From: a virus
IMG/VR virus record: IMGVR_UViG_3300026270_000002
DNA: 42,147 nt
Reading direction: 5' to 3' (one strand)
The position numbers and the translations under genes were made by a program. Positions 1 through 41,259 of this stretch are shown here, in pieces. The first letter of the stretch is position 1. The number at the start of each line of letters is the position of its first letter. The notes under the pieces were generated by a model that saw only the letters and a program-made list of their open reading frames with translations, ran no database searches and had not been told where the DNA came from.

Positions 1-99
1 CCACATGGCGATAGTAATAATGATGGTAAATTTTTACGAGCTAATAACGGTGCAGACCCTACATATGAAACTGTTAATACTGATTTAAGTGCTGACAGT
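1..99. repeat. Terminal overlap copy 1: identical to 42049-42147 (circular or circularly permuted genome, unit length 42,048 bp)
   Basis: Direct comparison: ccacatggcgatagtaataatgatgg...gatttaagtgctgacagt occurs at both ends of the window. Confidence 0.95.
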
Positions 100-26292: not shown

Positions 26293-26874
26293 ATGGCTCA
26301 AGTAGGTTGGAGTGGCTTAAGTAATTTAGGTAAAGCAGGGATAATTACACAGGGTTTTGGTGCGGTAAGTGGTGCTGTTGGTTCTTTTTACGCAGCAAGT
26401 GCAGAAAAATATAAAACAAAAAGTTTAGCTTTAAGTTTGCAGCATAAAAAAGATATGGCTCTTTTTAATATGCGTCAAAAAGAAAGTCAAGCACAGCATA
26501 TAAATCGTGCTTATAACAAACGATTTCAAATAATGAGTTTGAAGCAAGGAGCAGCAAAGTCTAAAAACATAGTATCAATAGCTTCTAGAGGTGGTGTAAG
26601 AGGTGTTGGTAGTAATTTAAATGCAATGGTTAGTAATGACATATTGGCAGAGATAGATAAATTAACGATGAATTCTAATAAAGTGCGAGCAGTACAAAAC
26701 AAACGATTAGAAGGTGTAGGTCTTGGAATACAAGGAGATATGTATGGAATGAGTGCAAGTAATATGTTTGCTACAGCGTCTTCTATTAGTCCGTTTATGA
26801 ATATGAGCAGTAGTTTGTTAACAGGTGCAGGTAATGTTCTTAGCAGCTTACCAGAAGGAATGTTAAGAGCATAA
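26293..26874 (+). CDS. Internal virion protein A (gp14-position)
   Basis: Assigned by position after the nozzle gene, Gly/Ala/Ser-rich hydrophobic ends and a helical middle. Assignment is by synteny only. Confidence 0.5.
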   Translation: MAQVGWSGLSNLGKAGIITQGFGAVSGAVGSFYAASAEKYKTKSLALSLQHKKDMALFNMRQKESQAQHINRAYNKRFQIMSLKQGAAKSKNIVSIASRGGVRGVGSNLNAMVSNDILAEIDKLTMNSNKVRAVQNKRLEGVGLGIQGDMYGMSASNMFATASSISPFMNMSSSLLTGAGNVLSSLPEGMLRA

Positions 26875-26876
26875 TT

Positions 26877-29303
26877 ATGGCAAAAGTTCCTTTTCAAAAT
26901 TACAAATTAGGAGAACAAGTAGAAACAGGTTCTGAAGTGCAATTTGGTGCTACTAGTGTAGAACCACAAAAAGATGTAGTTTCTGATGACATAAAACGTA
27001 TGTCACAAGCTCAAATAGCTTTTGGAAAAACGTTAAATCGAATAGATGATCAGCTTAATGATTCTGAAGCTAAACGTTTGTATAACGAAGCTCATTATGA
27101 AGTTGAAGCTGTTGTAAACGAATATGGACAATTACAAGGTTACGATGCAGTAAAACCATTAACAACAGAAGGAGAGGGAGAAGATCAGGTATATACCTTA
27201 GATGAATATAACAACAATAAATTAAAAAAAGTTCTTGATACTGGTTCAGATAAAGCTAGTAATGGCGTTGTTAAATATATGTATGAACAAATGATGTCAT
27301 CGTCTATAAAATCTGCACAAAATAAGATGATTAATCATTCCTTAACACAAGGACGTATAGCATTAGAAAACGAAACAAATGCGAGTATTGACATACATAA
27401 AACTAAAGCAAAAAATAATTATAAAGATTTTAGAGATCCAGAGGGTGAATTTAATAAAAATCGTATAGCGGCACATAGATTATTAGAACAAAAAGCAGTT
27501 TTAAAAGGTTGGAATCTTGACCCTAATGCCGTTGATGCTAACGGTAAAAAAATTGGAATAAGTGAACAATATTTAAAAGAAAAAAGTGAGCTTGATAAGG
27601 AAATAGCAAAAGATGTATTAGATAAATTAGATGAAGACAAAGATACAGAAGGCATTAAAGATTTTTTGGCAAGCTTGAAGCCTTTTACATCTGATAAAAC
27701 TTTTAATGAATTAGCGTCAGACAAAGAACAAAAACACGAGAATTTTAAAGGTGAGAACTGTGTTAATGCCACTCTTGCTAATACTGGTAATCAAAACGAT
27801 GGTGAATTTTTAAGTCAAATTAATAAAACAATGTGTTTAAAATCAAACCATGCGTATGAAGATGGAAACGGAGGAGTTGTCACAGATGGATTACATTCAA
27901 ATGAAAACGAAACATCAGGTACAACAACAACAGAAAATATAGAAACATTACAAAAAATAAGAGATACGTCTAAATTTTATTCACCTGAATCTTCACAAGC
28001 AGGTACTCTTATACCAGAACATCAAACTACGCACTTGTTTGCAATACAGCATATAGGAGTAGAAAAAGCTGATTCATTGTACACAAAAGCAAAATCAGAC
28101 ATAGAGATTGATAAAGCAAAATACAAAGAAGATCCTGTATATGCTGAAAAAATAAATAAAAAAATTATACAAAGATACAATCAATTAATTGTTCAAGAAG
28201 CAGCAAAAAAATATAAATTTGGTGGTGGAGAATATGTAAGCATTATAGAAAACGATTTAGCAATTATAGAAAAAGGTATTGATTACAATTATAAAAATAC
28301 TAACGAAGAAGTTAAGGTAGATTTTGTTACAGGTTTGCGTCCTATAGAAGATTTAAAACGTGAAATTAAAGAAACTATTACAGATAAAGAAACACAAAAA
28401 CACGCAATAAAAGATTTAGAAGTTAAATACGAAAAAATCGCAAATCAAAAAACACAAATTTATAATGAAAATTTAAACGCTGCAAAAAAAATAGCATTTG
28501 CAGAGCCAAACGGATACAAGAATCTTGCAGCTAATGGAATACAAATAGATAGTTTTAGTCCAAAAGATCAAGAGATTTTAAAAAATGGACAGCCAGTAGA
28601 TTCTGATCAAGGAACGATAGCTAAATTAAAAGATAATCCAGAAGAAGTCGTTAATAATTTAGAGTCATACAGCCATAAAATTTCTAAATCTGATTATCTA
28701 GAATTAGAAAGATACGCTAAAGAATTGCAAGGAGGAGGAGAATCAAAAATTTTTGAAGTAACTACTGATAACAAAATGTTTAAAAGTGTTTTATATAAAA
28801 ATGGTTTTGGAGATTTAGCTTTTCCAGAAGAAGAATTAAAAGGCGATGATGCAGCTATATATAATGAACTTGAAGATGCATGGAGAGATAGAATAAATTA
28901 TGCACAAAGGGTAGAAGGCAGAAAATTAACTAGAGCAGAAAAAGAACAATTATTAGTAAATGTATTATTAGACAAAGTAAATGTAGGCAAGAAATATAAA
29001 AAACAGGTTACTTTTGCAACTGTTCTTGAGACAGGTGAAAAGGATAAGTTAGATAAAACATCTGTCCTTGTCAAAGTAAAACGTGCTGATGGAACTGAAA
29101 CAGAAGATCGGATATTTAATTCAGAGATTCCACCAGATATAAATATTGCAATAATGGCTGCGTTGTATAAACGTAAAAAACCTATGAATCAACAACAAAT
29201 TGCACAACTATGGCAAAACATGGGTAGGCCAGAAACGTTAGAAGAAGCGGATAAATTTATTAAAGCAAGTAAAAACTATGAATTATTAACTATGGAGGAA
29301 TAA
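26877..29303 (+). CDS. Internal virion protein B (gp15-position), Lys/Glu-rich helical
   Basis: An 808-aa ORF between the 193-aa and giant genes. Assignment is by synteny only. Confidence 0.5.
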   Translation: MAKVPFQNYKLGEQVETGSEVQFGATSVEPQKDVVSDDIKRMSQAQIAFGKTLNRIDDQLNDSEAKRLYNEAHYEVEAVVNEYGQLQGYDAVKPLTTEGEGEDQVYTLDEYNNNKLKKVLDTGSDKASNGVVKYMYEQMMSSSIKSAQNKMINHSLTQGRIALENETNASIDIHKTKAKNNYKDFRDPEGEFNKNRIAAHRLLEQKAVLKGWNLDPNAVDANGKKIGISEQYLKEKSELDKEIAKDVLDKLDEDKDTEGIKDFLASLKPFTSDKTFNELASDKEQKHENFKGENCVNATLANTGNQNDGEFLSQINKTMCLKSNHAYEDGNGGVVTDGLHSNENETSGTTTTENIETLQKIRDTSKFYSPESSQAGTLIPEHQTTHLFAIQHIGVEKADSLYTKAKSDIEIDKAKYKEDPVYAEKINKKIIQRYNQLIVQEAAKKYKFGGGEYVSIIENDLAIIEKGIDYNYKNTNEEVKVDFVTGLRPIEDLKREIKETITDKETQKHAIKDLEVKYEKIANQKTQIYNENLNAAKKIAFAEPNGYKNLAANGIQIDSFSPKDQEILKNGQPVDSDQGTIAKLKDNPEEVVNNLESYSHKISKSDYLELERYAKELQGGGESKIFEVTTDNKMFKSVLYKNGFGDLAFPEEELKGDDAAIYNELEDAWRDRINYAQRVEGRKLTRAEKEQLLVNVLLDKVNVGKKYKKQVTFATVLETGEKDKLDKTSVLVKVKRADGTETEDRIFNSEIPPDINIAIMAALYKRKKPMNQQQIAQLWQNMGRPETLEEADKFIKASKNYELLTMEE

Positions 29304-29304
29304 T

Positions 29305-32300
29305 ATGAGTTCATCAAATCCTTTTGATAATGTTGGAAACGATCAATTTTTAGGTGAAAGCTACGGATCTAATCAAAATAATTATGTAGATGACAATCCG
29401 TTTGATACTTATTTTAAAGTACAAGACAAACAAAAAGAAGAAGTACTAAAACAAGTTCTTAGTCTTGCACAAAAAAAAGATCCAAACAGAATTGGAAAAG
29501 CACAGATATTAGCTGAAGAATTAGGCATACCACCTGACATGGCACTAGATAATGAAGGTGTATTAGAAATATTAGAGGAAAGAAAAAAACAACAAGAAAT
29601 ACAAAATCTTAATGCACGAGATTTAGCATTAGTAAATCCATTGTTGGCAAAACAATTGCGTGATCCTAACTTTGCAGCAATAGCATATGACAATATTCCC
29701 AGACTACAAAAAACTGAAGGTTTATTTCCCGGTTTTAAAAAGTTAGCACAAAACTATTACGAAGGTGATGCAAGGGGAACTATCGCAAGAGAAATGGGAG
29801 ACATTGGAGATCGTTTAAAAACAAACGGTGTACCGTTTTTAGATACAAAAAGAGGATTTGAAGAAGGATATGTGCCCACTCAACAAGATTTAGATGACTT
29901 AGAAGCATTAAGAGTAATGGAAGAAAGATTAAGAGAATACGACAATAATGGTATTGGTCTTCTTGAAGGTTTCGCATATATGCCGGGTTTATTGCGTGGT
30001 GGTCAAATTGAAGCAATCACAGCAGGTTTAGTAACAGCCAAGGGAACAGATGTTGCAACAAAAGCACTTACTTCAACTTTTTTCTCTCAATTATTTGGTA
30101 ATGATGGCGGTGGCAATTTTATGGGCTACGGAGTTGGTTACGCAATTGGTCAGGTAGTTTCACCATTTATAAGTCTCTTTACTGGTATGAATGCTTATAC
30201 CAACAAAATGACTTTAGACATGAAACAAATAGCATCTGGTCATCAATATATGGAAGCAAGAAGTAGAGGTATAAGTGTAGAAAGAGCACAAGTATTAGCA
30301 GAAATAACTGGATGGAGTGAAGCTGCTATTGAAAGAGTAGGAATAGAATATTTTTCTCGTGTTTTAAAAAAAAGTGCACCGGGTTACTTAAAACTTATTG
30401 ACCCATTAACTAGTCCATTAATGAAAAAATCTGGATTAGATAAAGCAATAAACAGAGTATTTGCAAAAAATGTTTTAAGTAACGGTGGACGCAAACTTAC
30501 ATATAAAGCAGCATTATTTAGAGGTGCAACACAATATATGTCTAACGTAGGAGTAGAACTTACTACAGAATTATTACAAGAATTAAATGCAATTGCAGGT
30601 ATAAATTTATTTGCTGAATTTGAAGATGGAGTAACTCCAATTAGTGCAGTAGAAATAGGAGACAGAATTTATAACACAATGGATATGACTTTTAGAAGTA
30701 TGGTTTTATTTGGTTTATTGCCGTCAATAGGTAGTTTTGCAACTGATTTTACAGCGGCGAGCAAAGCAAAAAAAGATACCGCAATATTATCTAAGTTAAG
30801 TCAAATATCTAAAGATGACGTAACAAAAAAAAGAAATAAAACTGCATGGCAAAACTGGGTACAACAATTAGCCGATCAAAATAATGCAGACACAATACAT
30901 ATAAATGCACAGGAATTCAAACAACAATTAGATAACAATGCTATTACAGAACAGCAATTAGAATTGTTTTCACCAGAACTTGCTAATCAATTAAAAAATG
31001 CAGAAAAACAAGGTTTATCAGGAACAACTATACAAATAAAAACTGGTGATTATTTAGCAAATATTTCTGGTACAAAATTTGATGAGTCATTAAAACCACA
31101 TATAAAATTTGGTAGTGACCAAATGAGTTTGACAGAAGCTAATCAATTTTTTAAAGACCAGCCAGAAATATTAAAAGCAATGAAAGAAGAAGTTAGTAAA
31201 CAAAAAGACCAATTATTACAAGATCAAGAAGAATCAAGACAAATAGAATTACAAATTACAAACCAATTAAAGAATTTAAATATTTACAAACCACATAATG
31301 CCCGGTTTTTATCACGACTAATAGGAAATTTTGCAAAAACATATTCTCAATACACAAATCAAACACCTTCACAATTTATAAACGATCATTTTTATAACAT
31401 TCAATTAGACACTAAAAGTAAAAATTTTGGTCAACAATATTTTAATCAAGACGGAACAATAAAAACAGATTCGCCATTATTTAAAAACTGGTTTCGTAAA
31501 TCGAAAATGGTTAATAAAGATGGTACACCAATGGTTTTTTACCACGGAACTACAGACAATATAAGACAGTTTGATTTAGAACACCCAAACAGATTAGACA
31601 CAGGGTATTTAGGCAAAGGCATATACGTTACTCCTAACAAAGGATTGGCAAAGATTTATGCTGACATTAAAAAAAGTAGATTTAGAAAAAAAACAGAAGA
31701 TAAAAAAATATTAGAATTGTATGTACGTCTAGAAAATCCAAAAACAGTAAATGTAAATAGTGGGATTAAATCACAAAATAAAGATGGTGGTAAAGCAGCG
31801 GCAAATGCATACAAAGATAAATTAATTAACGAAGGACATGATGGTGTCATTATGGTTAATAATTCTGGAGAAATAGTAGAGGTAGCTGTTTTTGATGCAA
31901 ATGCTGTTAAGTCTGTAGACAATAGTGGTAACTGGTCTAACGAAATAAATGACATATATAAACAACAAGTTACAGAATCCTTTGAACAAAAAGCAACACA
32001 AAAACAAGGCAAGCCAGTATCAGAAGAAGTATTTCAATTAGCAAGAATTTTAGAAAATTTTGATTTTGCAAAGAGTAAACCTTTTGCAACTAATCGTGAT
32101 TTTAAATTAGAAATACAAGGTCGTATACAAGCTGCTGCTAAAAAAGCAGGTGTAAATTTAGCAGATTTTAGTGTAGAAACAGAAAAATATCTTGTAAGAA
32201 CTTTATTGGAAGACGCACGATTTGCTTTGACAGAAAATGCAAATGCTGTTGGTTGGTATGACGAAAAAGTATCTAAAGCAGTACGAATACTTTCTCTTGT

Positions 32301-35300
32301 ATATCCAAAAGTTGCTACTGATAAAAGACATGAATTTGTATTTAAATGGGCATTAGCAGCTACATCTAACGGTATAAAAGTAGATAAAAATTATGAGTAT
32401 GCAGCAGATGTATATGAAAAATGGTTGAGGTCAGAAGAAGAACTAGGTGAAGGTAAAGGCAGATTGCCAGAAAAAATGTTAAATGCACAAGGCGAAAAGA
32501 CAGGTGGTACTGCAAGAGCAGCAATGGAAAAATCTTTTAAAATATTAAATTTATTATTTGATAGAAAATCTTTTAAAGAAATAGAAGAATTTATGAGAAC
32601 TATGCATACTGTAAGAGAAGTGCATGAGTTTGTAGGAACATATAAAAATGGAAGACAAATAAAAGTAGGCGGTGGTTATGGATTAGATGAAATGGTTTAT
32701 GGTGCTGCAATAATGGGTCCAAAAATTGGTAATGGATTTTTTGCAAATTTAAATGGCAACTATGACCAATTAACTTTAGATAGATGGGCTATGCGTACAT
32801 GGGGTCGCATGACAGGTACGTTAGTTTTAAACAAACAAAAACAAGCAAAAATAAAAAGAGGGCAAATAAAACAAATAATTAAAGCTTTAACTAAGACACA
32901 GAAAAAAGCGTTTGAAGCAATTATTGGCAGAAAACTTACAATAGGTGACCTTGATCAATTAGCTATTGATATTGAAAAAGCATCTACTACAGAAGAAAAT
33001 CGTAAATTAATGGCACAAATAGCTACTTTTAAAGAAGATCCAAAACATAAAGAAATATATGTAGAAATTAATGGTAAGCCAAGAAAAGATGATGCCACAG
33101 TTTCTCTTGGTGACTACTTGCGTAAAAGAGGTAATTTATTAGCTAAAGATAATGATGGTCAAAAAGAAGCACCAAGTGGTGCTCCAGAAAGAAGAAATAT
33201 AGAAAAAGTTTTTGCACAAGTATTAGAAGTTTTGCAAAAAGATTATCCTTCTTTAACAATGGCAGATTTGCAAGCACTTGTTTGGTATCCAGAAAAAAAA
33301 TTATATGATTCTGCAAAATTAAAAGAAGCAGTAGTAGAAACAAATTACGAAGATAATGAAGCACCTGATTATGCCAATGCTGCTGTTGAATTTGCTGCTA
33401 GAATAGGTATACCAGATGAAGACATACAATCTGCAATACAGGAGGTGGATGATGAGTTACAGGCCGTTGAGCAATCAAGAGGAACACAACCTGATGCTGG
33501 AGGAAGAGGAGAGGTACGAGGAGATGATGGAACTTTCCAACAACAAGGAAGAATTGACGAAACCACAGGACTCCCTCTCAACCCAGATGGAACTGTCACC
33601 GTCTACCACCACACCAGTAGAAGAAACGCAGAACGAATCAGAGCGACAGGTGAACTTAGAAGTGCTGGAGAACCTGATGTCTACGTTACCACCAGAGCTA
33701 TCACGGATACTGGCTATGGTGATACAGCAGTTCCCATCAGGGTTGACCCAAAAATCCTTGAACCAAATGATGAATTCCCTAACGGACGAAGAGATTTCAA
33801 CATCAGACTTACAGATGCTGAAGGAAATCTTGTCTACGGAGGATCTATTCGAGTAAACGTTGGAGAGTTTGCACAGCAACAAGATTCTGACGGTGCTAGA
33901 GGTCGTTTTCAACCGGATACATTAACAGCATTATTTACTACACAAGCAGATTTCTCAACTTTTGCACATGAGAGTGCTCACTATATGTTAACTGTATTAG
34001 AAAATATAGTTACAGGAGAAAATGCCCCATTAGAACTAATAAATGATTTTAATATTTTATTAGATTTTTGGGGTGTAAAAGATTTAGAAACATGGAAATC
34101 TTTTGACATTGATCAAAAAAGAAAGTACCACGAATCATTTGCATATAACTTTGAAATTTATCTGTTTGAAGGTAAAGCTCCAAGCACGGCATTACAAGAA
34201 ATGTTTAGGAAATTTAGTAGATTTATTAAAAGAGTTTATACAGATGTTATTTACAAAGTTAACGCTGCTTATAAACAAGAAACTGGTCAAGACTTGCCTA
34301 TGCTTACTGACGAAGTAAGAAACGTAATGGACAGAATGTTAGCTGTTGATGAAGACATAGTACAAGCAAATGCAATATATGACATGAAAGGTATGTTCCA
34401 AACACAAGAACAAAGTGGGATGAATGATACAGAGTGGGCAGAATATACAGCAGCATTAGAAGAAGCAGAAAACGAATCAATAGAAATAATGACACGGCAA
34501 AGCATGAGACAAGTGCGTTGGTTAAATAACAAAAGAGAAAAAGTCAAAAAACAATTTGATAAAAAAGTTCTTAAATTGCGTCAAAAAATAGAACAAGAAG
34601 AACTTGAAAAATTAAAACAAGATCCAGTTTATAAAGTCCAATCATTTTTAAAACGTGGTGAAACTTATAATGAAAAAGGTGAATTAGTAAAAACAAAAGG
34701 TATTCATAAATTATCTATTAATAGCATCAAAAATTTAATACCATTTTATGACGAAGACGTAGCAAAAGCAGATATAAAAAAACTAGGTACTGGTCAAAAT
34801 GGCATGGTTAGAAAAAACGGTTTAGACGCAAAAGTTGTAGCAGATATGTTTGGGTTTCCATCAGGAGAATCATTGGTAAATGCATTATTAGAAATAAGAC
34901 CTATACAAGATGTTGTAAAAGAACGTACAGATCATCGTATGTTAGAAGAACATAGTGATTTAATTGATGACAGACAATTAGAATTACAAGTACAAGAAGC
35001 AATACATAACGAAGCAAGAGCAAGATTTATAGCAGTTGAACTAGGATTTTTAACAAAAGCTATGCAACCAGTAAGATATCAAGTTGCTGCTGCAAAACAA
35101 GTTGCTCAAGATATATTGGCAGAAATGAAATTATCAGAAATAAGACCGTCAGTATTTACAAGAGCAGAAGCTAATGCGTTAAAAGAAGCTGAAAAAGCAA
35201 TGAAAAGAAAAGATGCTGATTCTATTAGAGATGTTGTACAAGCAAAACGATCACAACTTTTAAACAATCAACTAGCAAAAGAAGCTATAGAAATACAAAA

Positions 35301-37968
35301 ACAATATAGAAAACAAGTTACAAATAGAGATTCTTTATTTAACAAGTTTTTTGGATCTGATAAAAAATTATTTAAAAAAGGCAAAAGTCAACGAAATTCA
35401 GATTTAGTAAGTGCGGGTAGAGCAATATTATCTTCTTATGGTATTGGACCAATAGTAGAAAATCCAATGGTGTATGTAGAAAATATGAAAGAATATGACA
35501 AATATATGTATGAAGAACTTAAGCCTATGATTGAGGACACACAAGCAGCCGAAGGTCAGGCAGATATTACAGATTTAACTTATGAAGAATTTTTAAATTT
35601 AAATGATTTGATGGAGTCTTTATGGCATCAATCTTTACGTCAAAATCAAATGAGAATACAAGGTGAATTAGTAGATATACAGCCATTAAAAGATACTTTA
35701 AATAATCGTATGAAAGTAATGATATCTAGAAGTAAAAGATTAAGTGCTAGAGCAGCAACACCTATTGGAACAACGGAAGCTGTACCAACATCATATGGCG
35801 ATTTTTTAGGGTTGTTAGGATTTGGAGCAAAACTGAGAAGAATGGAACCGTGGGTTGACATGATGGATGGAGCACAAGGTGTAAATCCGGGATTTCTTTC
35901 AGCAGTATTAGAATTAAAAGATGGCAAATTAGGTGATTTTTATAATACGTTATGGTTTCCAATGCGATCAGCATTAGATGAATACAGAGTAGATCAAACT
36001 ATTTATACAAAAGAATATGCAGAATTAGTTGGTGCTGTTGATTTTGGTAATACAGAAATTATGGCAAATGAATTTGCAATGGTTTCTGAAGAGTCTCAAG
36101 CATATAAATTTGGAGCAGAAAGTAATGGCAGAGGAAAAGTTGAATTGCTTGGAGCTATGCTGCATACAGGTAACGACAGCAATAAAAAGAAATTATTACT
36201 TGGCAGAAAATGGGGCAAACTTAACGAAGATGGGTCATTAGATTCAACTCATTGGGATGCGTTTGTAGAACGTATGATTAACGAGGGACATTTAACAAAA
36301 CAAGATTTTATATTTTTACAGTCAGTATGGGATTTAAATAAAAAGATGTTACCTCTTTTGCAAAAAGCACATAAAGAAACTGAAGGATATTATTTTAAAA
36401 TAGTTAAACCAACGCCAATTGTGAATAGATTTGGCGAATTTGAAGGAGGTTATGTACCTGCTAAAGGTGATCCAAATATGACAGATGTAAATATTAAAGA
36501 TGAAATAAGTACCGCAAAAATGGAGTTTAAAAATTCATTACCAAAAGTTGAAAACGGTATGACAAAAAAACGTAATGAGCAGTTTGCACAACCACTATCA
36601 TTGCATTTAGGCTATATGACAAAACATATAGATGACACACTACGTTATGCCCATATACAACCAGTAATCAAAGATTTATTAAAAATAATAGACGATAAAG
36701 AATTTACAAAGTTATTAAAAATTATAGATCCAACTATTAAAGATGAAATGATAATGCCTTGGTTAAAATCAGCAGCTAGTCAAAAAACATATTCACCTAG
36801 TGTGCTTGGTCCAAAAGCTGACGCACTTATACAAATTGGTAAACGTAGAACTGGTATGGGAATAATGTTTGGAAATTTAACAAACGCATTTACACAACTT
36901 ACAGGTTTATTCCCTGCACTTATAAAAGTAAAACCTAGACATTTAATAGAAGGCATAATTGAATACATGAAAGATAGAGAAGGCACAATGCAAAAAATTG
37001 CCGCAGCATCACCTTTCATGGCAGATAGACAACAGAATTTAATATTTGATATTCAAGGCAGGTTAAACGATTTAATTATAAATCCGGATAATTTTCAAAA
37101 AATGCAAGAGTGGAGTAAAGCTCATGGTTATTTTTTACAACAAACATTTCAAGGTATAACTGACGCTATTGTCTGGATTGGAACTGTTAACCAAGTAACT
37201 GAAAGAATGCCTGTAACTATGAGCAATGAAGAGGTAATGGCTGAAGCTATTAAACAAGCAGATGCAAATGTTCGTATGACACAAGATAGTTTATTGCCAG
37301 AAGACAGAGCAGCATTTCAAAACATGGACCCCATAATTCAATCATTAACACAATTTACTGGTTACTTTAATATGATTGCAAATTTAGATTTTACGCAATA
37401 TCAAAAGTTAGTTAAAGATGAAATAGGTTATAAAAATAAAGGTATAGGAACAGAGCAAGGATTTTATTTATATCTGTACACTATTCTTATGCCAGCAATA
37501 ATCTCAGGTCTTATTATGCGTGGTTTAGGTGGCAGATTAGGAGAAGACAAAGATGATGATGGCTATATACATGATGATGTAGCTAAAGCATTTTTAGGAG
37601 ATATTATGGGTTACAAGGCAGGTTTAATACCTGTAGTAGGACAACTTGCACTTATCCCAATAAATGCTCAAAATGATCTGCCTTGGGATGACGATATAGT
37701 TTCTAGCCCAAGTATTGAAGCATTGCAAGATTCGGCTCGTGTAATACTAGATCTTCCCATAACAATATTCCAAGAAGGTTTAGAAGGTACAACAGGAAAA
37801 CAAATAAGAGATGTTTCTACCTTGGTTACATTAAGAACTGGCATTCCATTTACACCATTAGGTAGAACATTTGGTTATTTACGAGATGTACAACGTGGCT
37901 ATGCTAAACCTAAAGGACCAGTTGATTTTATAAGAGGTGTTGTTACAGGTAAAACAGGTACAAGATAA
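29305..37968 (+). CDS. Giant (2,887 aa) internal/ejection polyvalent protein (gp16-position) with two ART-like modules, an HExxH module and C-terminal TM helices
   Basis: Uninterrupted ORF. Module 1: NWFRKSKMVNKDGTPMVFYHGT..GIYVT..GEIVEVAVFD, about 31477-31929. Module 2: TVTVYHHTS..DVYVTT..NDEFPNGRRDF, about 33560-33800. HESAH lies at 33967-33981, followed by YHESFAYNFEIYLFEGKAPS. The C-terminal hydrophobic helices are LYTILMPAIISGLIM and LIPVVGQLALIPI. Confidence 0.8.
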   Translation: MSSSNPFDNVGNDQFLGESYGSNQNNYVDDNPFDTYFKVQDKQKEEVLKQVLSLAQKKDPNRIGKAQILAEELGIPPDMALDNEGVLEILEERKKQQEIQNLNARDLALVNPLLAKQLRDPNFAAIAYDNIPRLQKTEGLFPGFKKLAQNYYEGDARGTIAREMGDIGDRLKTNGVPFLDTKRGFEEGYVPTQQDLDDLEALRVMEERLREYDNNGIGLLEGFAYMPGLLRGGQIEAITAGLVTAKGTDVATKALTSTFFSQLFGNDGGGNFMGYGVGYAIGQVVSPFISLFTGMNAYTNKMTLDMKQIASGHQYMEARSRGISVERAQVLAEITGWSEAAIERVGIEYFSRVLKKSAPGYLKLIDPLTSPLMKKSGLDKAINRVFAKNVLSNGGRKLTYKAALFRGATQYMSNVGVELTTELLQELNAIAGINLFAEFEDGVTPISAVEIGDRIYNTMDMTFRSMVLFGLLPSIGSFATDFTAASKAKKDTAILSKLSQISKDDVTKKRNKTAWQNWVQQLADQNNADTIHINAQEFKQQLDNNAITEQQLELFSPELANQLKNAEKQGLSGTTIQIKTGDYLANISGTKFDESLKPHIKFGSDQMSLTEANQFFKDQPEILKAMKEEVSKQKDQLLQDQEESRQIELQITNQLKNLNIYKPHNARFLSRLIGNFAKTYSQYTNQTPSQFINDHFYNIQLDTKSKNFGQQYFNQDGTIKTDSPLFKNWFRKSKMVNKDGTPMVFYHGTTDNIRQFDLEHPNRLDTGYLGKGIYVTPNKGLAKIYADIKKSRFRKKTEDKKILELYVRLENPKTVNVNSGIKSQNKDGGKAAANAYKDKLINEGHDGVIMVNNSGEIVEVAVFDANAVKSVDNSGNWSNEINDIYKQQVTESFEQKATQKQGKPVSEEVFQLARILENFDFAKSKPFATNRDFKLEIQGRIQAAAKKAGVNLADFSVETEKYLVRTLLEDARFALTENANAVGWYDEKVSKAVRILSLVYPKVATDKRHEFVFKWALAATSNGIKVDKNYEYAADVYEKWLRSEEELGEGKGRLPEKMLNAQGEKTGGTARAAMEKSFKILNLLFDRKSFKEIEEFMRTMHTVREVHEFVGTYKNGRQIKVGGGYGLDEMVYGAAIMGPKIGNGFFANLNGNYDQLTLDRWAMRTWGRMTGTLVLNKQKQAKIKRGQIKQIIKALTKTQKKAFEAIIGRKLTIGDLDQLAIDIEKASTTEENRKLMAQIATFKEDPKHKEIYVEINGKPRKDDATVSLGDYLRKRGNLLAKDNDGQKEAPSGAPERRNIEKVFAQVLEVLQKDYPSLTMADLQALVWYPEKKLYDSAKLKEAVVETNYEDNEAPDYANAAVEFAARIGIPDEDIQSAIQEVDDELQAVEQSRGTQPDAGGRGEVRGDDGTFQQQGRIDETTGLPLNPDGTVTVYHHTSRRNAERIRATGELRSAGEPDVYVTTRAITDTGYGDTAVPIRVDPKILEPNDEFPNGRRDFNIRLTDAEGNLVYGGSIRVNVGEFAQQQDSDGARGRFQPDTLTALFTTQADFSTFAHESAHYMLTVLENIVTGENAPLELINDFNILLDFWGVKDLETWKSFDIDQKRKYHESFAYNFEIYLFEGKAPSTALQEMFRKFSRFIKRVYTDVIYKVNAAYKQETGQDLPMLTDEVRNVMDRMLAVDEDIVQANAIYDMKGMFQTQEQSGMNDTEWAEYTAALEEAENESIEIMTRQSMRQVRWLNNKREKVKKQFDKKVLKLRQKIEQEELEKLKQDPVYKVQSFLKRGETYNEKGELVKTKGIHKLSINSIKNLIPFYDEDVAKADIKKLGTGQNGMVRKNGLDAKVVADMFGFPSGESLVNALLEIRPIQDVVKERTDHRMLEEHSDLIDDRQLELQVQEAIHNEARARFIAVELGFLTKAMQPVRYQVAAAKQVAQDILAEMKLSEIRPSVFTRAEANALKEAEKAMKRKDADSIRDVVQAKRSQLLNNQLAKEAIEIQKQYRKQVTNRDSLFNKFFGSDKKLFKKGKSQRNSDLVSAGRAILSSYGIGPIVENPMVYVENMKEYDKYMYEELKPMIEDTQAAEGQADITDLTYEEFLNLNDLMESLWHQSLRQNQMRIQGELVDIQPLKDTLNNRMKVMISRSKRLSARAATPIGTTEAVPTSYGDFLGLLGFGAKLRRMEPWVDMMDGAQGVNPGFLSAVLELKDGKLGDFYNTLWFPMRSALDEYRVDQTIYTKEYAELVGAVDFGNTEIMANEFAMVSEESQAYKFGAESNGRGKVELLGAMLHTGNDSNKKKLLLGRKWGKLNEDGSLDSTHWDAFVERMINEGHLTKQDFIFLQSVWDLNKKMLPLLQKAHKETEGYYFKIVKPTPIVNRFGEFEGGYVPAKGDPNMTDVNIKDEISTAKMEFKNSLPKVENGMTKKRNEQFAQPLSLHLGYMTKHIDDTLRYAHIQPVIKDLLKIIDDKEFTKLLKIIDPTIKDEMIMPWLKSAASQKTYSPSVLGPKADALIQIGKRRTGMGIMFGNLTNAFTQLTGLFPALIKVKPRHLIEGIIEYMKDREGTMQKIAAASPFMADRQQNLIFDIQGRLNDLIINPDNFQKMQEWSKAHGYFLQQTFQGITDAIVWIGTVNQVTERMPVTMSNEEVMAEAIKQADANVRMTQDSLLPEDRAAFQNMDPIIQSLTQFTGYFNMIANLDFTQYQKLVKDEIGYKNKGIGTEQGFYLYLYTILMPAIISGLIMRGLGGRLGEDKDDDGYIHDDVAKAFLGDIMGYKAGLIPVVGQLALIPINAQNDLPWDDDIVSSPSIEALQDSARVILDLPITIFQEGLEGTTGKQIRDVSTLVTLRTGIPFTPLGRTFGYLRDVQRGYAKPKGPVDFIRGVVTGKTGTR

Positions 37969-38034: not shown

Positions 38035-41000
38035 ATGACGATAAATTCGACTACACGAAAGACTAGTAATTTGGCCGGAAATGGCAATACTCATACATAT
38101 CCGTTTGCCTTTAAAGTTTTTACAGACGCAGATGTAGTTGTAAAAAAATTAGAAGTTAGTACAAGTATAGAAACTACCTTAACTCTAGGTGCTAACAATG
38201 ATTATATAGTTACTTTAAATTCAGATCAAAATGGTAATCCCGGTGGAAGCATAACCTTAAAATCAGGTGGTAACAATTTTAATTTACCTTCTGGTTTTCA
38301 ACTTGTTATTACATCTGCTGTAGAACCATTACAAGGAACAGATCTTACTAACCAAGGTGGATTTTACCCAGAGGTTATTAATGACGCTTTAGATCAAGCA
38401 GTTATATTGCACCAACAACAGCAAGATGAATTAGATAGATCAATTAAATTTTCATTAACTAATACTATTGGTAGTTTAGAAATTACAGAAAACGCTAACG
38501 CTCGTAAAAACAGAGTATTAGGTTTTGACAATTTAGGTGAGTTTGAAGTATTAAAAGAACTAGGAACATATCGTGGTAATTGGGCTGCTGGTACTTCTTA
38601 TGCAGTAAGAGATCTTGTTAAAGATACATCTACAAATAATATTTTCTTTTGTAATACAGCACATACTTCACAAGGTGCACAGCCATTAACAACTAATACT
38701 AACTCTGCAAATTGGGATTTAATAGTAGACGCAGCATCATCTACTACTGCACAAAATAATGCAGCGGCATCCGCTACTGCATCCGCAAATTCTGCCACTG
38801 CCGCAGCTTCATCTCAAACGGCAGCAGCAAATAGTGCGACGGCCGCAGCAACGTCTGAAACAAATGCAAGTAATTCTGCAACTACTGCATCTACAAAAGC
38901 GACACAAGCAGACGCATCTAAAACAGCCGCCCAAACTGCGCAAGCCGCAGCGGAACTTGCACTTGATACTTTTGATGACAGATATTTAGGAGCAAAACAA
39001 AGCGACCCGGCTACGGATAATGACGGTAATGCACTTATAGATGGAGCGTTATATTACAACACAACATCTAACATAACTAAAGTTTATGATTTAGGTACAA
39101 CATCTTGGTTAGTTGTAAATATAACTGGTACTGATCTAACAAATACAAATACAGTTGCTGGTGCGATTAGTAACGTTAATACAGTAAGCAGCAACATTTC
39201 TAATGTAAATGCAGTTGCTAGTAATTCTAGTAATATTAACGCTGTAGCTGGAAATAACAGCAATATTAATACAGTTGCAGCAGCTAATACAAATGTTAAT
39301 TCTGTAGCTGGCAGTATTGCAAACGTAAATACTGTGGCAAGCAATATATCCAACGTCAATACAGTAGCAGCGGATATCGCTAAAGTAGTTACTGTCGCTA
39401 ATGATTTAAATGAAACTGTTTCAGAAATAGAAACAGCAGCAGCAGATTTACAAGAAACAACTTCAGAAATAGATACTGTTGCTAATGCAATTACTAATGT
39501 AAACCTAGTAGGAAATAATATAAGTAATATCAATGCAATAGGTACTATTCTTGCAGGTCAAACTACATATGCAGTAACTGTTGCTAATGGTGTTTTCTAT
39601 ATTGATGGTGCTGCTAATCCAACTCTAAGTATTATTAGAGGGTTTACATATATATTTGACCAATCGAACAATTCAAATGCTGGGCATCCATTAGCTTTTA
39701 AAGATGGAAGTGGCAATGCTTATACAACTGGAGTAACTGTTAACGGTACGGCAGGTCAATCAAATGCAAATGTAACTTTTGTTGTACCTTCAAATGCCCC
39801 TGCATCAATGCGTTATTACTGTACACAACATGGTAATGGTATGGGTAATACTATTACAGTTGGTGATGACAATATTGGTGTTGTAGCAGGTGATATAAAT
39901 AACGTTAATACTGTTGCAGGTTCAATCTCTAACGTAAATAATGTTGGTGGTAGTATTGCAAATGTTAACTCTGTTGCTAGTAATTTAAGTGGTGTTAATG
40001 CATTTGCTGAAAGATATAGAACAGATAATAGTGGTAATAATCCATCAACTAATAATGATGGTGGTGATTTATTTTTTAACCAAGCAAGCGGTAAATTACT
40101 TGTTTATAACGCTAACACTTCTGCATGGGAAGAAACACAATCTGTTGGTAACTTTTTTATAAATACTATTAGCAGTTTTAGTGGCACTGGTGGTAATAGT
40201 GCAACGTTTAATGGATCTGCATACAAATTTACATTAAGCAATGCAGGTCAGTTTGCTCAACAAATGTTGGTAAGTGTTGCTGGTGTAGTACAAAAACCAA
40301 ATACAGGCACAGGACAACCTAGTGAAGGGTTTGCTTTAGATGGTGCAAACATTGTTTTTGCTGCTCCACCTCCAGCCGGGGCTGATTATTTTATAGTTAC
40401 TATTGGTGCGTCTGTAAGTATTGGTACGCCTAGCGATGGCACTATTACAGAAGCCAAATTAAATGCTAGTAACAATCCTGTTAATGGATATTTTTTACAA
40501 GCACAATCTGGTGCAGCAGGTGGTTTAACTTGGGCTGCTGTAGATCTTACTAATCTAAGTGCAAGCAATTTAACTTCTGGTACTTTACCTAATGCTAGAT
40601 TCCCTGCAACATTGCCAGCAGTTAGTGGAGCAAATCTAACTAATTTACCAGCAGGTAATTTAACAGGCACAGTAGCAGATGCTCGTATCACAAGTTTAAC
40701 AGCATCAAAATTAACAGGTGCTTTGCCCGCCATAGACGGATCAAACCTTACAGGTATTACCTCAACAACTATAAACAACAACGCAAACAATAGAATTATT
40801 ACTGGTTCTGGAACTGCAAATACTTTAGAAGGTGAATCAACCTTAACCTTTGATGGTACAAATTTACTTTTTGGTGCTGGTAGAAGTCTTAGATTTACCT
40901 CTGGTGGAGGTTGGTCAGGTAATAGTGCTATGAAGATTGAAGGTCATAATAATCATCTTTATCTTTGTGGTGGATCAAGTGGATTTATCTTTAGAGATAC

Positions 41001-41259
41001 TGGTGGTACTGACCAATGGGGTATCAATAGTAGTGGACATTTTTTTCCTCAAAGTAACAATACTTACGATATAGGTACTACAAGTTATAGAGTAAGAAAC
41101 ATCTACACTAATGACCTTAACTTATCTAACGAAGGTTCTTCTAATGACGTTGACGGAACTTGGGGAAGTTATACTATACAAGAAGGAGCAGAAGATCTTT
41201 TCTTGGTGAACAAACGCAATGGTAAAAAATATAAATTTAATTTAACGGAGGTAACATAA
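38035..41259 (+). CDS. Tail fiber 1 (1,074 aa): Ala/Ser/Thr coiled coil, decapeptide-repeat shaft, embedded cupredoxin-like domain, conserved C-terminal domain
   Basis: AELALDTFDDRYLGAKQSDPATDNDGNALIDGALYYNT is a classic phage fiber segment. The xIxNVNxVAx repeats and the C-terminus NLSNEGSSNDVDGTWGSYTIQEGAEDLFLVNKRNGKKYKFNL also fit. Confidence 0.85.
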   Translation: MTINSTTRKTSNLAGNGNTHTYPFAFKVFTDADVVVKKLEVSTSIETTLTLGANNDYIVTLNSDQNGNPGGSITLKSGGNNFNLPSGFQLVITSAVEPLQGTDLTNQGGFYPEVINDALDQAVILHQQQQDELDRSIKFSLTNTIGSLEITENANARKNRVLGFDNLGEFEVLKELGTYRGNWAAGTSYAVRDLVKDTSTNNIFFCNTAHTSQGAQPLTTNTNSANWDLIVDAASSTTAQNNAAASATASANSATAAASSQTAAANSATAAATSETNASNSATTASTKATQADASKTAAQTAQAAAELALDTFDDRYLGAKQSDPATDNDGNALIDGALYYNTTSNITKVYDLGTTSWLVVNITGTDLTNTNTVAGAISNVNTVSSNISNVNAVASNSSNINAVAGNNSNINTVAAANTNVNSVAGSIANVNTVASNISNVNTVAADIAKVVTVANDLNETVSEIETAAADLQETTSEIDTVANAITNVNLVGNNISNINAIGTILAGQTTYAVTVANGVFYIDGAANPTLSIIRGFTYIFDQSNNSNAGHPLAFKDGSGNAYTTGVTVNGTAGQSNANVTFVVPSNAPASMRYYCTQHGNGMGNTITVGDDNIGVVAGDINNVNTVAGSISNVNNVGGSIANVNSVASNLSGVNAFAERYRTDNSGNNPSTNNDGGDLFFNQASGKLLVYNANTSAWEETQSVGNFFINTISSFSGTGGNSATFNGSAYKFTLSNAGQFAQQMLVSVAGVVQKPNTGTGQPSEGFALDGANIVFAAPPPAGADYFIVTIGASVSIGTPSDGTITEAKLNASNNPVNGYFLQAQSGAAGGLTWAAVDLTNLSASNLTSGTLPNARFPATLPAVSGANLTNLPAGNLTGTVADARITSLTASKLTGALPAIDGSNLTGITSTTINNNANNRIITGSGTANTLEGESTLTFDGTNLLFGAGRSLRFTSGGGWSGNSAMKIEGHNNHLYLCGGSSGFIFRDTGGTDQWGINSSGHFFPQSNNTYDIGTTSYRVRNIYTNDLNLSNEGSSNDVDGTWGSYTIQEGAEDLFLVNKRNGKKYKFNLTEVT
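39139..39543 (+). repeat. Array of about 30-nt (10-aa) imperfect tandem repeats in tail fiber 1
   Basis: ISNVNTVSSN / ISNVNAVASN / SSNINAVAGN / NSNINTVAAA / NTNVNSVAGS / IANVNTVASN / ISNVNTVAAD / IAKVVTVAND, then ETVSEIET / ETTSEIDT and two further NV(I)N units. Confidence 0.85.
39871..40005 (+). repeat. Second block of the same decapeptide repeats, downstream of the cupredoxin-like domain
   Basis: GVVAGDINNVNTVAGSISNVNNVGGSIANVNSVASNLSGVNAF. Confidence 0.8.

What the first reader, a model, noticed from the sequence alone, without database searches (positions are those of the whole stretch)
29305..37968. 2,887-aa virion polyvalent protein with two ART-like modules and an HExxH module
The gene occupies the T7 gp16 position, after the nozzle and two internal proteins, but is more than twice that size.

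Motifs I can read:
- ART-like module 1, around 31477-31929: NWFRKSKMVNKDGTPMVFYHGT ... GKGIYVT ... GEIVEVAVFD. This is an H-Y-E arrangement like the ART domains described for phage and conjugative-element polyvalent proteins.
- A second, divergent H-Y-[DE] module: TVYHHTS ... DVYVTT ... NDEFPNGRRDF.
- HESAH at 33967-33981, followed by YHESFAYNFEIYLFEGKAPS, a zincin-like module.
- C-terminal hydrophobic helices that could form an ejection conduit.

Inference: this is an injected multi-effector protein delivered with the DNA, probably for counter-defence or host takeover through ADP-ribosylation and proteolysis. The long stretches between the modules have no assignment.
Basis: partly seen in the sequence, partly recalled or inferred. 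Interest (0 to 1): 0.7.

Follow-up and report, generated by a model that had tools for sequence, protein, structure and literature searches.

The report
Giant phage ejection protein carrying enzymes
This 2,887-residue gene is the large internal "ejection" protein of a short-tailed phage; its front half has been loaded with enzyme modules (two ADP-ribosyltransferase-like domains and a large unknown one) that are probably shot into the bacterium with the DNA, which is a known design with some uncatalogued parts.

Summary
There is one uninterrupted 2,887-aa ORF at 29305-37968 (+). It follows the tail-tube genes and two internal-protein genes, and every quoted motif is at the stated place.

- **Module 1** is a bona fide Pfam ART-PolyVal domain (E 8e-18).
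- **N-terminus** carries LPD22.
- **C-terminal 1,360 aa** are homologous to Bordetella phage BPP-1 Bbp10, which the literature lists as a T7 gp16 (IVP-D) homologue.
- **Module 2** (aa 1416-1519) is a mobile ~95-aa domain with no Pfam entry. Its AlphaFold model (pLDDT 86) matches only ART-fold proteins at high Foldseek probability, and family members give recurrent sub-threshold hits to Tpt1/KptA, Tox-ART-HYD1 and PARP.
- **HExxH segment** has invariant residues in twelve divergent phages and always sits between variable cargo and the conserved core. No profile or fold search placed it in a zincin family, so that claim stays open.

At least 70 IMG/VR contigs carry the same architecture. This is a new member of the known polyvalent / IVP-D class, with two uncatalogued domains. 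Packaging, ejection and all enzyme activities are inferred, not shown.

The parts
29305..37968 (+). Giant gene, 2,887 aa: IVP-D (gp16-class) ejection protein with polyvalent cargo
29461..29754 (+). LPD22 domain (aa 53-150), the shared N-terminal signature of the Bbp10-like family
   Evidence: Pfam PF18834, E 1.4e-10, 41.7 bits against cut-off 28.6. Also found in ctQRb9, DC33, ctEw122, BPP-1, JessA and AF.
29755..31464 (+). N-terminal scaffold (aa ~151-720) with two Gly-rich, moderately hydrophobic segments (aa 271-298 and 458-486). No family assignment.
   Evidence: aa 494-717 aligns with BPP-1 Bbp10 398-611 and JessA 369-657. Hydrophobic segments recur in homologues.
31513..31926 (+). ART module 1 = ART-PolyVal (aa 737-874): H747 (YHGT), Y774 (GIYVT), acid E859 or D864
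   Evidence: Pfam PF18760, E 8.1e-18, 66 bits against cut-off 31.2, profile positions 1-136 of 140. Alignment A2.
32002..33516 (+). MID domain (aa ~900-1404): large conserved domain of unknown function. Motifs: GWYDEK, TSNGxKVDKNFELAE, GPKIGNGFFxNLxGxFDQLTMDRWxxRTWGR, DGQKEAP, LTMADLQALLWYPEKRLYD, APDYANAA.
   Evidence: 1,813 representative proteins at E<=1e-3 and 438 at E<=1e-30, mostly 2,000-4,400 aa. Conservation. No Pfam or PDB relative. Present in proteins that carry LPD37, LPD38, InPase and ART-PolyVal.
33550..33861 (+). ART-like module 2 (aa 1416-1519): compact mobile domain. Proposed triad H1435 / Y1460 / D1497, with invariant R1495.
   Evidence: Homologues. Invariant residues. AF2 pLDDT 85.7. 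Foldseek PDB and BFVD. Weak Pfam hits to ART families.
33886..34479 (+). HExxH junction domain (aa ~1528-1725): HESAH at nt 33967-33981. Invariant E1610 (nt 34132-34134) and E1617 (nt 34153-34155) lie on a downstream helix.
   Evidence: Invariant residues in 11-12 divergent phages. AF2 pLDDT 82.8 with a beta-hairpin followed by helices. No significant zincin match.
33877..37956 (+). Conserved IVP-D core (aa 1525-2884), homologous to BPP-1 Bbp10
   Evidence: phrog_9880, E 3.4e-277. tblastn to Bbp10, E 2e-76. Hardies 2016 Table 2.
37456..37680 (+). C-terminal hydrophobic pair (aa 2718-2746 and 2759-2792), candidate membrane-inserting helices
   Evidence: Kyte-Doolittle 1.8 and 1.35. The first is conserved in position in nearly all homologues.
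26293..29303 (+). Two upstream internal-protein genes. The 193-aa protein is IVP-B/Bbp12-like. The 808-aa protein is in the IVP-C/Bbp11 position and has no muralytic domain.
   Evidence: phrog_418. BLAST to ctQRb9, DC33 and BPP-1 counterparts. No Pfam hit.

Best explanation
The gene encodes the large internal virion (ejection) protein of a BPP-1/epsilon15-like podophage. It is the counterpart of T7 gp16 (IVP-D), and its N-terminal half has been expanded into a polyvalent cargo carrier.

Layout:
- LPD22 and a scaffold with hydrophobic segments (aa 1-720)
- ART-PolyVal (aa 737-874)
- a large conserved MID domain (aa 900-1404)
- a compact second ART-fold domain (aa 1416-1519)
- an HExxH domain (aa 1528-1725)
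- the ~1,200-aa helical IVP-D core, ending in a hydrophobic helix pair

Proposed mechanism, all steps inferred:
1. A few copies are packaged in the capsid core.
2. At infection they are ejected through the tail.
3. The C-terminal core helps build the trans-envelope DNA conduit.
4. The cargo half reaches the cytoplasm, where the two ART-fold domains use NAD+ to modify host targets. Module 2 may act on RNA or translation factors, judging by its structural neighbours.
5. The HExxH domain sits exactly at the cargo/core boundary. It most likely acts as a zinc-dependent self-processing peptidase that separates cargo from conduit.

Shown here: the domain identities, the homologies, the synteny and the conservation. 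Inferred: packaging, ejection, catalysis, targets and cleavage.
For: Identity and context:
- Structural-module synteny.
- LPD22 and ART-PolyVal score above Pfam cut-offs.
- aa 1531-2795 aligns with Bbp10 at E 5e-98 and matches phrog_9880 at E 3e-277. Bbp10 is listed as an IVP-D homologue, and IVPs are described as hosting cytoplasm-destined domains.

Cargo is variable, the rest is fixed:
- PBECR1 in BPP-1, LPD23 in AF, GNAT+PBECR5 in Ab9, PBECR5 in Carin1, ART-PolyVal in JessA.
- LPD22, the HExxH block and the core persist.

Module 2:
- AF2 pLDDT 85.7.
- Foldseek PDB top eight hits: TreTu, Agrobacterium 6b and RhsP2, probability 0.92-0.99; CNFy ranks thirteenth at probability 0.77.
- BFVD hits: Mycobacterium phage ART (E 4e-3) and viral PARPs.
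- Among 59 family members, 21 weakly hit Tpt1/KptA, 8 hit Tox-ART-HYD1 and 1 hits PARP.
- H, Y, R and D are invariant or nearly so.
- The same domain occurs in head-module genes of unrelated SU10-like phages.

HExxH block:
- H, E, H, E1610 and E1617 are invariant in 11-12 divergent phages.
- It lies at the cargo/core junction in essentially all of the 80 IMG/VR loci whose sequence reaches that point.

Other:
- The hydrophobic C-terminal helices are conserved in position.
- Iyer et al. propose exactly this logic for polyvalent proteins.
Against: - No direct sequence link to T7 gp16. A profile of the core found nothing in the PDB at E<=10, so the link rests on published HMM-HMM chains.
- Module 2 matches to ART structures are modest (E 0.03-0.14, TM 0.43-0.47). 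hhalign against ART-PolyVal gave only 2.4% probability.
- The triad assignment comes from the order of secondary-structure elements, not from coordinates.
- The HExxH domain has no significant zincin match by Pfam, PDB sequence or Foldseek. Only two strands are predicted before the helix.
- No experimental data on virion content, cleavage or activity exist for this family as far as I found.
Confidence: 0.72

Rival explanations
1. The HExxH block is not a peptidase. It is a conserved helical, possibly metal-stabilised, structural element at the start of the IVP-D core. It might serve as a hinge or docking site for the capsid core stack or the portal, and the cargo stays covalently attached.
For: - No significant zincin match in any search.
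- The model is almost all long helices, with only a two-strand hairpin.
- According to Iyer et al., the N4 vRNAP and several plasmid polyvalent proteins with MPTase domains are transferred unprocessed.
Against: - H, E and H plus two Glu on a later helix are invariant at 22-44% overall identity. That is the gluzincin ligand pattern.
- The sub-threshold hits that do appear are enriched for zincins: Reprolysin_3/4/5, Peptidase_M78, DUF4344, Spartan, anthrax LF and PprI.
Confidence: 0.3
2. Module 2 has an ART-derived fold but is not a transferase. It would act as a binding module, for NAD+/ADP-ribose, a nucleic acid or a packaging/ejection partner, or as an NADase.
For: - The core is very small (~95 aa).
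- No ART family is matched above threshold.
- Non-catalytic ART-like domains exist. The CNFy ART-like domain has no confirmed activity, as quoted.
Against: - Identity is 55-65% across unrelated protein contexts, with invariant polar residues (H1435, Y1460, R1495, D1497, plus the GYG and FPxGR motifs), which is typical of an active site.
- The closest solved structures of similar size, TreTu (113 aa) and RhsP2 (about 140 aa), are active ARTs.
Confidence: 0.2
3. The 8.7-kb ORF is an assembly or annotation artefact that fuses separate genes.
For: Many database homologues are short fragments of 180-540 aa.
Against: - No stop codon in 2,887 codons.
- At least 70 independent IMG/VR contigs, and isolates or complete genomes such as DC33, ctQRb9 and ctEw122, encode the same continuous architecture at 2,760-3,330 aa.
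- Most of the short hits come from short contigs.
Confidence: 0.01

Closest known systems
Bordetella phage BPP-1 Bbp10 and relatives (Caulobacter phage Jess A gp039c, Pseudomonas phage AF gp16, Xanthomonas CP2 ORF24, Limnohabitans phage DC33, uncultured ctQRb9 and ctEw122)
   Same: - Same gene position.
- LPD22 at the N-terminus.
- Same HExxH junction block and ~1,200-aa C-terminal core, with a conserved hydrophobic helix near the end.
- ctQRb9, DC33 and ctEw122 also share ART-PolyVal and MID.
   Different: - Bbp10 is 2,052 aa and carries a PBECR1 nuclease instead of ARTs.
- None of the deposited phage genomes examined carries module 2.
- Identity to the nearest deposited genome is only 39.5%.
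Polyvalent proteins of phages and conjugative elements (Iyer et al. 2017, PMC5512222)
   Same: - A single giant polypeptide that combines unrelated enzymatic domains.
- ART-PolyVal and LPD22 are families defined in that work.
- It is encoded among virion genes.
- An HExxH module is proposed there as the processing hub.
   Different: - The HExxH block here does not match Pfam's MPTase model or any other zincin model.
- Module 2 and MID have no Pfam entry. I could not see the paper's supplementary list of LPDs, so they may or may not have been catalogued there.
T7 gp16 / IVP-D ejection proteins (Hardies et al. 2016, PMC4819975)
   Same: - Last and largest of the internal-protein genes, after tubular B, IVP-B and IVP-C and before the fibre.
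- Predicted to be largely helical.
- Bbp10 is listed as an IVP-D homologue.
- N4 gp50 and H66 gp60 are precedents for cytoplasmic enzymes embedded in IVP-D.
   Different: - More than twice the size of gp16 (1,318 aa, from my own knowledge).
- No lytic transglycosylase domain.
- No detectable direct sequence similarity to any solved structure.
Small ART toxins TreTu (Salmonella Rhs1), RhsP2 (P. aeruginosa), Agrobacterium 6b; Tpt1/KptA and Tox-ART-HYD1 families
   Same: - Best structural matches of module 2, and recurrent weak Pfam matches.
- Similar size.
- The spacing of beta1 His to beta2 Tyr (25 residues) equals the R6-H31 spacing in TreTu.
- D1497 lies 62 residues after H1435, at the start of the predicted fifth strand. 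W68 of TreTu lies 62 residues after R6.
- R1495, two residues before the acid, parallels K1574/E1576 of RhsP2.
   Different: - Sequence identity is 8-18%.
- The triad would be H-Y-D, not R-H-h (TreTu) or R-Y-E (RhsP2).
- Delivery is by a phage ejection protein, not by T6SS Rhs.
T4 Alt (head-packaged, injected ART)
   Same: The functional precedent: an ART packaged in the virion and injected with the DNA to modify host proteins.
   Different: - Alt belongs to the R-S-E clade.
- It is a separate head protein of a myovirus, not part of an ejectosome protein.

Membership tests
Polyvalent protein (Iyer et al. 2017) | Two or more biochemically disparate domains in one large polypeptide, including family-signature domains | tested here: met
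   LPD22 and ART-PolyVal score above Pfam cut-offs. There is also a second ART-fold domain, MID and an HExxH block.
Polyvalent protein (Iyer et al. 2017) | Encoded among virion or packaging genes of a phage, or in a conjugation locus | tested here: met
   The gene lies between tubular B plus the internal proteins and the tail fibre.
Polyvalent protein (Iyer et al. 2017) | Delivered into the host with the DNA | not testable with these tools
   Needs virion proteomics and infection assays.
ART-PolyVal (PF18760; Tox-ART-HYD2 clade) | Profile match above the gathering threshold over the full domain | tested here: met
   66 bits against 31.2, profile positions 1-136 of 140, aa 737-874.
ART-PolyVal (PF18760; Tox-ART-HYD2 clade) | H on strand 1, Y on strand 2, acidic residue (D) on strand 5 | tested here: inconclusive
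   H747 is invariant and Y774 is present. The acid could be E859 (E-I-V-V-F pattern) or D864, and neither column is invariant in alignment A2. The family is described as H-Y-D.
ART superfamily (module 2) | Split beta-sheet ART fold | tested here: met
   The AF2 model has pLDDT 85.7. The top eight PDB matches are all ART toxins at probability 0.92-0.99, but with E 0.03-0.14 and TM 0.43-0.47. BFVD gives a phage ART at E 4e-3 and viral PARPs.
ART superfamily (module 2) | Significant sequence-profile match to an ART family | tested here: not met
   Only sub-threshold hits: Tpt1/KptA best E 0.0056 (21 of 59 members), Tox-ART-HYD1 0.024 (8 of 59), PARP 0.0037 (1 of 59). hhalign against ART-PolyVal gave 2.4% probability. 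There were no PDB sequence hits.
ART superfamily (module 2) | Catalytic triad on strands 1, 2 and 5, and NAD+ use | tested here: inconclusive
   H1435 and Y1460 are nearly invariant, and R1495 and D1497 are invariant. Their placement on strands 1, 2 and 5 is inferred from the order of secondary-structure elements.
Zincin-like metallopeptidase (MPTase of polyvalent proteins) | HExxH on a helix plus a Glu ligand on the following conserved helix | tested here: met
   H1555, E1556 and H1559 are invariant. E1610 and E1617 are invariant on a downstream helix. Which Glu would be the ligand is unknown.
Zincin-like metallopeptidase (MPTase of polyvalent proteins) | Three-stranded sheet and N-terminal helix before the HExxH helix, with a fold or profile match to zincins | tested here: not met
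   Only a two-strand hairpin is predicted. Foldseek against PDB gave no match with probability above 0.14. There was no Pfam hit for the window sequence at E<=10. Single-member weak hits went to Reprolysin, M78 and DUF4344. Spartan scored E 0.29.
T7 gp16 / IVP-D ejection protein | Synteny: last large internal-protein gene after tubular B, before the fibre | tested here: met
T7 gp16 / IVP-D ejection protein | Homology to an accepted IVP-D member | tested here: met
   Homology to Bbp10 at E 5e-98 over aa 1531-2795. Bbp10 is listed as IVP-D in Hardies Table 2.
T7 gp16 / IVP-D ejection protein | Direct similarity to T7 gp16 itself, and an N-terminal lytic transglycosylase | tested here: not met
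   A profile of the core found no PDB chain at E<=10. No SLT or lysozyme hit was found anywhere in the protein.

The most novel reading that the evidence does not exclude
Module 2 defines an uncatalogued minimal (~95-aa core) H-Y-D ADP-ribosyltransferase family that phages load onto ejection and head proteins. Its nearest structural neighbours are RNA- or translation-targeting enzymes (RhsP2, Tpt1/KptA, TreTu). It would therefore ADP-ribosylate host RNA or the translation machinery within seconds of DNA entry, after release by the adjacent HExxH self-processing domain. The neighbouring 500-aa MID domain, present in more than 1,800 protein clusters and often next to ART-PolyVal, would be a second new enzyme of this delivered toolkit.
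Probability: 0.2. Interest if true: 0.65.

Novelty: new member of a known kind. Interest (0 to 1): 0.4.

Why it matters
This finding adds a well-resolved example to the idea that podophage ejection proteins double as delivery vehicles for host-manipulating enzymes. It also gives that idea a clear modular grammar: LPD22, then variable cargo, then the HExxH junction, then the IVP-D core.

Two abundant domains without any database entry now have boundaries, conserved residues and, for one of them, a fold:
- the mini-ART, with at least 189 IMG/VR loci;
- MID, with 1,813 representative clusters.

Both are therefore directly testable. If active, the mini-ART would be among the smallest ARTs known and a candidate counter-defence or takeover effector. 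A self-cleaving junction would explain how cargo is separated from the conduit.

Tried and rejected
Searches that found nothing or nothing useful:
- Megablast of the gene against deposited phages: no match.
- phmmer of the whole protein against PDB: only a chance QueH hit, E 0.56.
- NCBIfam: no family.
- A second homologue search on aa 1520-1840 added no new sequences.
- Profile of the HExxH block against PDB: the best hit was penicillin G acylase, E 0.02, over a helical stretch with no shared HExxH, which I judged to be chance. Spartan scored E 0.29.
- Foldseek of the HExxH model against PDB: nothing with probability above 0.14.
- Profiles of MID, the IVP-D core and module 2 against PDB: no hits.
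- hhalign of module 2 against ART-PolyVal: only the first strand aligns, at 2.4% probability. Module 2 is therefore not a diverged copy of module 1.
- MID against Pfam: only a weak DUF7178 hit in 2 of 10 members.

Limits of the tools:
The triad and metal-site geometry could not be measured.
- One tool call was wasted on a malformed alignment request.

Rejected ideas:
- An assembly artefact.
- A muralytic role for this protein: no lysozyme, SLT or M23 signal was found.
Full report
**Observation.** The window holds a single ORF at 29305-37968 (+), ATG start, 2,887 codons, no internal stop. It starts two bases after the stop of the preceding gene.

The surrounding genes form a podophage structural module:

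| Gene | Coordinates | Best PHROG match |
|---|---|---|
| Portal | 18018-19697 | phrog_332, E 2e-180 |
| Protease/scaffold | 20499-21197 | phrog_458 (protease), E 9.8e-48 |
| Major capsid | 21209-22228 | phrog_212 (major head protein), E 7.6e-85 |
| Tail tubular A | 23086-23754 | phrog_394 (tail protein), E 6.8e-44 |
| Tubular B / nozzle | 23758-26226 | phrog_376, E 4e-208 |
| 193-aa internal virion protein | 26293-26874 | phrog_418 (internal virion protein), E 5.9e-05 |
| 808-aa protein | 26877-29303 | none |
| Giant gene | 29305-37968 | see below |
| Tail fibre | 38035-41259 | phrog_13518 (unknown function), E 6.7e-83; several tail fiber families also match |

HESAH at 33967-33981 is the only HExxH in the protein.

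**What the protein is related to.** No nucleotide-level relative exists among deposited phages. At protein level, 57 phage records match.
- Three match along most of the length: uncultured podophage ctQRb9 (3,209 aa, 39.5% identity, 94% coverage), Limnohabitans phage DC33 (3,125 aa) and ctEw122 (2,792 aa).
- Many match only the C-terminal ~1,350 aa: Bordetella BPP-1/BMP-1/BIP-1 Bbp10, Pseudomonas AF, Xanthomonas CP2 and relatives, several Vibrio phages, Acinetobacter Ab9 and Cobetia Carin1. Caulobacter Jess A-type phages match the N-terminal scaffold and ART region as well as parts of the C-terminal core.
- PHROG 9880 covers aa 1525-2884 at E 3e-277.

Hardies et al. (PMC4819975) list Bbp10 as the IVP-D (T7 gp16) homologue of BPP-1. 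They also note that IVPs 'variably host ... domains destined for the cytoplasm', with N4 gp50 and H66 gp60 as examples. The link to T7 gp16 itself is only through that literature: a profile of the core found no PDB chain at E<=10.

**Domain map.** Pfam gives LPD22 (aa 53-150; 41.7 bits against cut-off 28.6) and ART-PolyVal (aa 737-874; 66 bits against 31.2; E 8e-18). Both families were defined in the polyvalent-protein study of Iyer et al. (PMC5512222). That paper describes this ART family as H-Y-D, within the Tox-ART-HYD2 clade.

In module 1, H747 is invariant and Y774 is present. The acid could be E859 (an E-I-V-V-F strand, as in PARP-type enzymes) or D864.

Relatives keep LPD22, the HExxH block and the core but swap the middle:

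| Phage | Cargo |
|---|---|
| BPP-1 | PBECR1 |
| Pseudomonas AF | LPD23 |
| Acinetobacter Ab9 | GNAT + PBECR5 |
| Cobetia Carin1 | PBECR5 |
| Caulobacter Jess A | ART-PolyVal |
| ctQRb9, DC33, ctEw122 | ART-PolyVal + MID |

The family grammar is LPD22, then variable cargo, then the HExxH junction, then the IVP-D core.

**Module 2 (aa 1416-1519).** A homologue search found 91 proteins. About 70 of them share only this ~95-aa stretch, at 50-68% identity, inside otherwise unrelated proteins of 177-540 aa. Some also carry ART-PolyVal or GNAT domains. It is absent from ctQRb9, DC33, ctEw122, BPP-1 and Jess A. No Pfam, NCBIfam or PDB sequence match reaches significance.

The consensus is TGLPLNxDGTVTVYHHT...SAGEPDVYVTT...TGYGDT...DDEFPxGRxDF. 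Invariant residues are V1431, I1445, Y1471, G1472, F1491, P1492, G1494, R1495 and D1497. H1435 and Y1460 are nearly invariant.

Structure evidence:
- AlphaFold2 with this alignment gives a confident model: pLDDT 85.7, pTM 0.76, seven strands and one helix.
- Foldseek against PDB has no hit at E<=1e-3. The eight best are all ART-fold toxins at probability 0.92-0.99: Salmonella TreTu, Agrobacterium 6b and P. aeruginosa RhsP2. The ART-like domain of CNFy follows at rank 13 with probability 0.77. TM scores are 0.43-0.47.
- Against BFVD, after three homologues, the next hits include a Mycobacterium phage 'ADP-ribosyltransferase' (E 4e-3, TM ~0.5) and PARP catalytic domains of Bodo saltans virus and an uncultured phage.

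Sequence evidence: when the 59 family members are scanned singly, 21 give weak hits to Tpt1/KptA (best E 0.0056), 8 to Tox-ART-HYD1 and 1 to PARP. All three are ART-superfamily families. The coordinates of these per-member hits were not reported, so I could not confirm that they fall on the module 2 segment. For the window sequence itself, the Tpt1/KptA hit (aa 1303-1466) overlaps its first half.

Three independent lines therefore place module 2 in the ART superfamily, though none is individually strong. It is not a diverged copy of module 1: hhalign gives 2.4% probability, and only the first strand aligns.

From the order of elements, I propose the triad H1435 (strand 1), Y1460 (strand 2) and D1497 (start of strand 5). 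The spacings mirror TreTu, where R6 to H31 is 25 residues and R6 to W68 is 62 residues. R1495 lies two residues before the acid, like K1574/E1576 of the RNA-modifying RhsP2.

**Distribution of module 2.**
- A scan of IMG/VR found 189 loci. Nearly all of the best 80 encode the same giant architecture as the window, 2,760-3,330 aa when complete: ART-PolyVal, MID, module 2, HExxH, IVP-D core. A few carry extra ART-PolyVal copies.
- Seventeen loci were found in bacterial genomes. They are mostly Burkholderiales MAGs, plus Castellaniella sp. FW104-7C03. Several are giant ORFs with module 2 directly before the HExxH-core unit.
- In unrelated SU10-type phages, the domain occurs in a 440-aa ART-PolyVal protein between terminase and portal, and in a 178-aa protein just upstream of the scaffold and capsid genes. 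These are positions typical of head-packaged cargo.

The window's gene is thus a typical member of a large uncultivated clade, not a singular object.

**HExxH block (aa ~1528-1725).** Alignments of 11-12 phage proteins at 22-44% identity show invariant S-T-[FV]-x-H-E-x-x-H. They also show a downstream invariant pattern, (H)E-x-[FW]-A-x-x-[FY]-E-x-Y-...-G-K-A-P-S (E1610, E1617), and a later V-x-D-R motif. The AF2 model (pLDDT 82.8) has a two-strand hairpin, then the HExxH helix, then several helices, with the two Glu on one of them. This is the ligand pattern Iyer et al. describe for MPTases of polyvalent proteins.

Every similarity test failed to reach significance:
- no Pfam hit for the window sequence at E<=10;
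- single-member weak hits to Reprolysin_3/4/5, Peptidase_M78 and DUF4344;
- Spartan at E 0.29;
- Foldseek probabilities of 0.14 or less, for anthrax LF and PprI.

I therefore treat 'zincin' as likely but unproven. What is solid is its position. It is always the first conserved element after the variable cargo. In the profile search, its upstream neighbours carry different polyvalent domains: PF18760, PF18853 (LPD37), PF18812 and PF18798. That favours a role in cis, such as processing or a hinge, over a role as a host-directed protease.

**MID (aa ~900-1404).** An exhaustive HMMER search found 1,813 representative proteins (50% identity clusters) at E<=1e-3 and 438 at E<=1e-30. Almost all are 2,000-4,400 aa long.

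Two were scanned and are classical polyvalent proteins, carrying lysozyme or glucosaminidase, InPase, LPD37, LPD38 and ART-PolyVal. About 70 columns are invariant in ten members that are 38-53% identical to the window sequence. There is no Pfam or PDB relative. Among the 150 best representatives, about 60 have ART-PolyVal next to MID and about 55 have the HExxH-core unit.

**Other features.**
- Hydrophobic helices lie at aa 2718-2746 and 2759-2792. The first is conserved in position, roughly 130-170 residues from the C-terminus, in nearly all homologues. Two moderate N-terminal segments (aa 271-298, 458-486) are also recurrent. This fits a membrane-inserting ejectosome component.
- No muralytic domain is present, either here or in the 808-aa upstream protein. 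The ends of that protein align with the lysozyme/SLT-bearing counterparts of ctQRb9 and BPP-1.

**Mechanism and status.** The best-supported reading is an IVP-D ejection protein that carries polyvalent cargo. It would be packaged in the capsid core and ejected at infection. The C-terminal core would build the conduit, and the cargo would be delivered to the cytoplasm. The two ART-fold domains would use NAD+ on host targets, and the HExxH junction would probably separate cargo from core.
- Shown here: domain identities, homology, synteny, conservation and predicted folds.
- Inferred: packaging, ejection, catalysis, targets and cleavage.

**Novelty.** The class is known: polyvalent proteins (2017), IVP-D proteins hosting enzymes (2016) and head-packaged ARTs (T4 Alt). 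This is a new member of that class. The two un-databased domains are the parts worth follow-up.

Noticed in passing
window 1-99 and 42049-42147: The first 99 bases are identical to the last 99 bases. The window is therefore a complete, circularly closed assembly of 42,048 bp, similar in size to its 39-40 kb relatives, or it has a 99-bp terminal repeat.
   Followed up: partly
window 26877-29303 (+): This 808-aa protein is in the IVP-C/Bbp11 position. Its N- and C-terminal ends align with the lysozyme-annotated protein of ctQRb9, with DC33 and with BPP-1 Bbp11 (SLT). It has no Pfam or PHROG hit and no muralytic domain. No virion-associated peptidoglycan hydrolase is recognisable in this phage's internal proteins.
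   Followed up: partly
window 32002-33516 (aa ~900-1404 of the giant protein): MID is a ~500-aa domain with about 70 invariant columns. It is found in 1,813 representative protein clusters, mostly giant polyvalent proteins, and is often adjacent to ART-PolyVal. It has no Pfam or PDB relative and was not modelled.
   Followed up: partly
window 29500-29540 and 33382-33425 (aa ~66 and ~1360): The motif A..LA...GIP.D occurs twice: at the start of LPD22 and at the end of MID. Three of ten MID members weakly match LPD22 (E 3e-4). It may be a recurring inter-domain helix or linker element, and its meaning is unknown.
   Followed up: no
window 15807-17132 (-) versus 18018-19697 (+): The large terminase is on the minus strand and diverges from the plus-strand portal and structural operon. 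The left third of the genome (about 2.3-14.4 kb) is transcribed leftward.
   Followed up: no
L012 8001-9323; L014 103-639: In SU10-type phages the module 2 domain occurs in two places. One is a 440-aa ART-PolyVal protein between terminase and portal. The other is a 178-aa stand-alone protein just upstream of the scaffold and capsid genes. The same mini-ART therefore appears to be used as head cargo in an unrelated phage lineage.
   Followed up: partly
L103 4051-11013 (Castellaniella sp. FW104-7C03, NZ_JBELOK010000005.1): This isolate genome has a prophage-like giant ORF of 2,321 aa with module 2, HExxH and the IVP-D core. It could serve as a culturable system for experiments.
   Followed up: no
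L009 (Pseudomonas phage AF gp16, aa ~807) and L011 (Xanthomonas CP2 ORF24, aa ~668): These relatives carry a second, upstream HExxH motif (VVMHEVQHAIQ and VVLHEVLHGV) in addition to the junction HExxH. Pfam gave no peptidase hit for either.
   Followed up: partly
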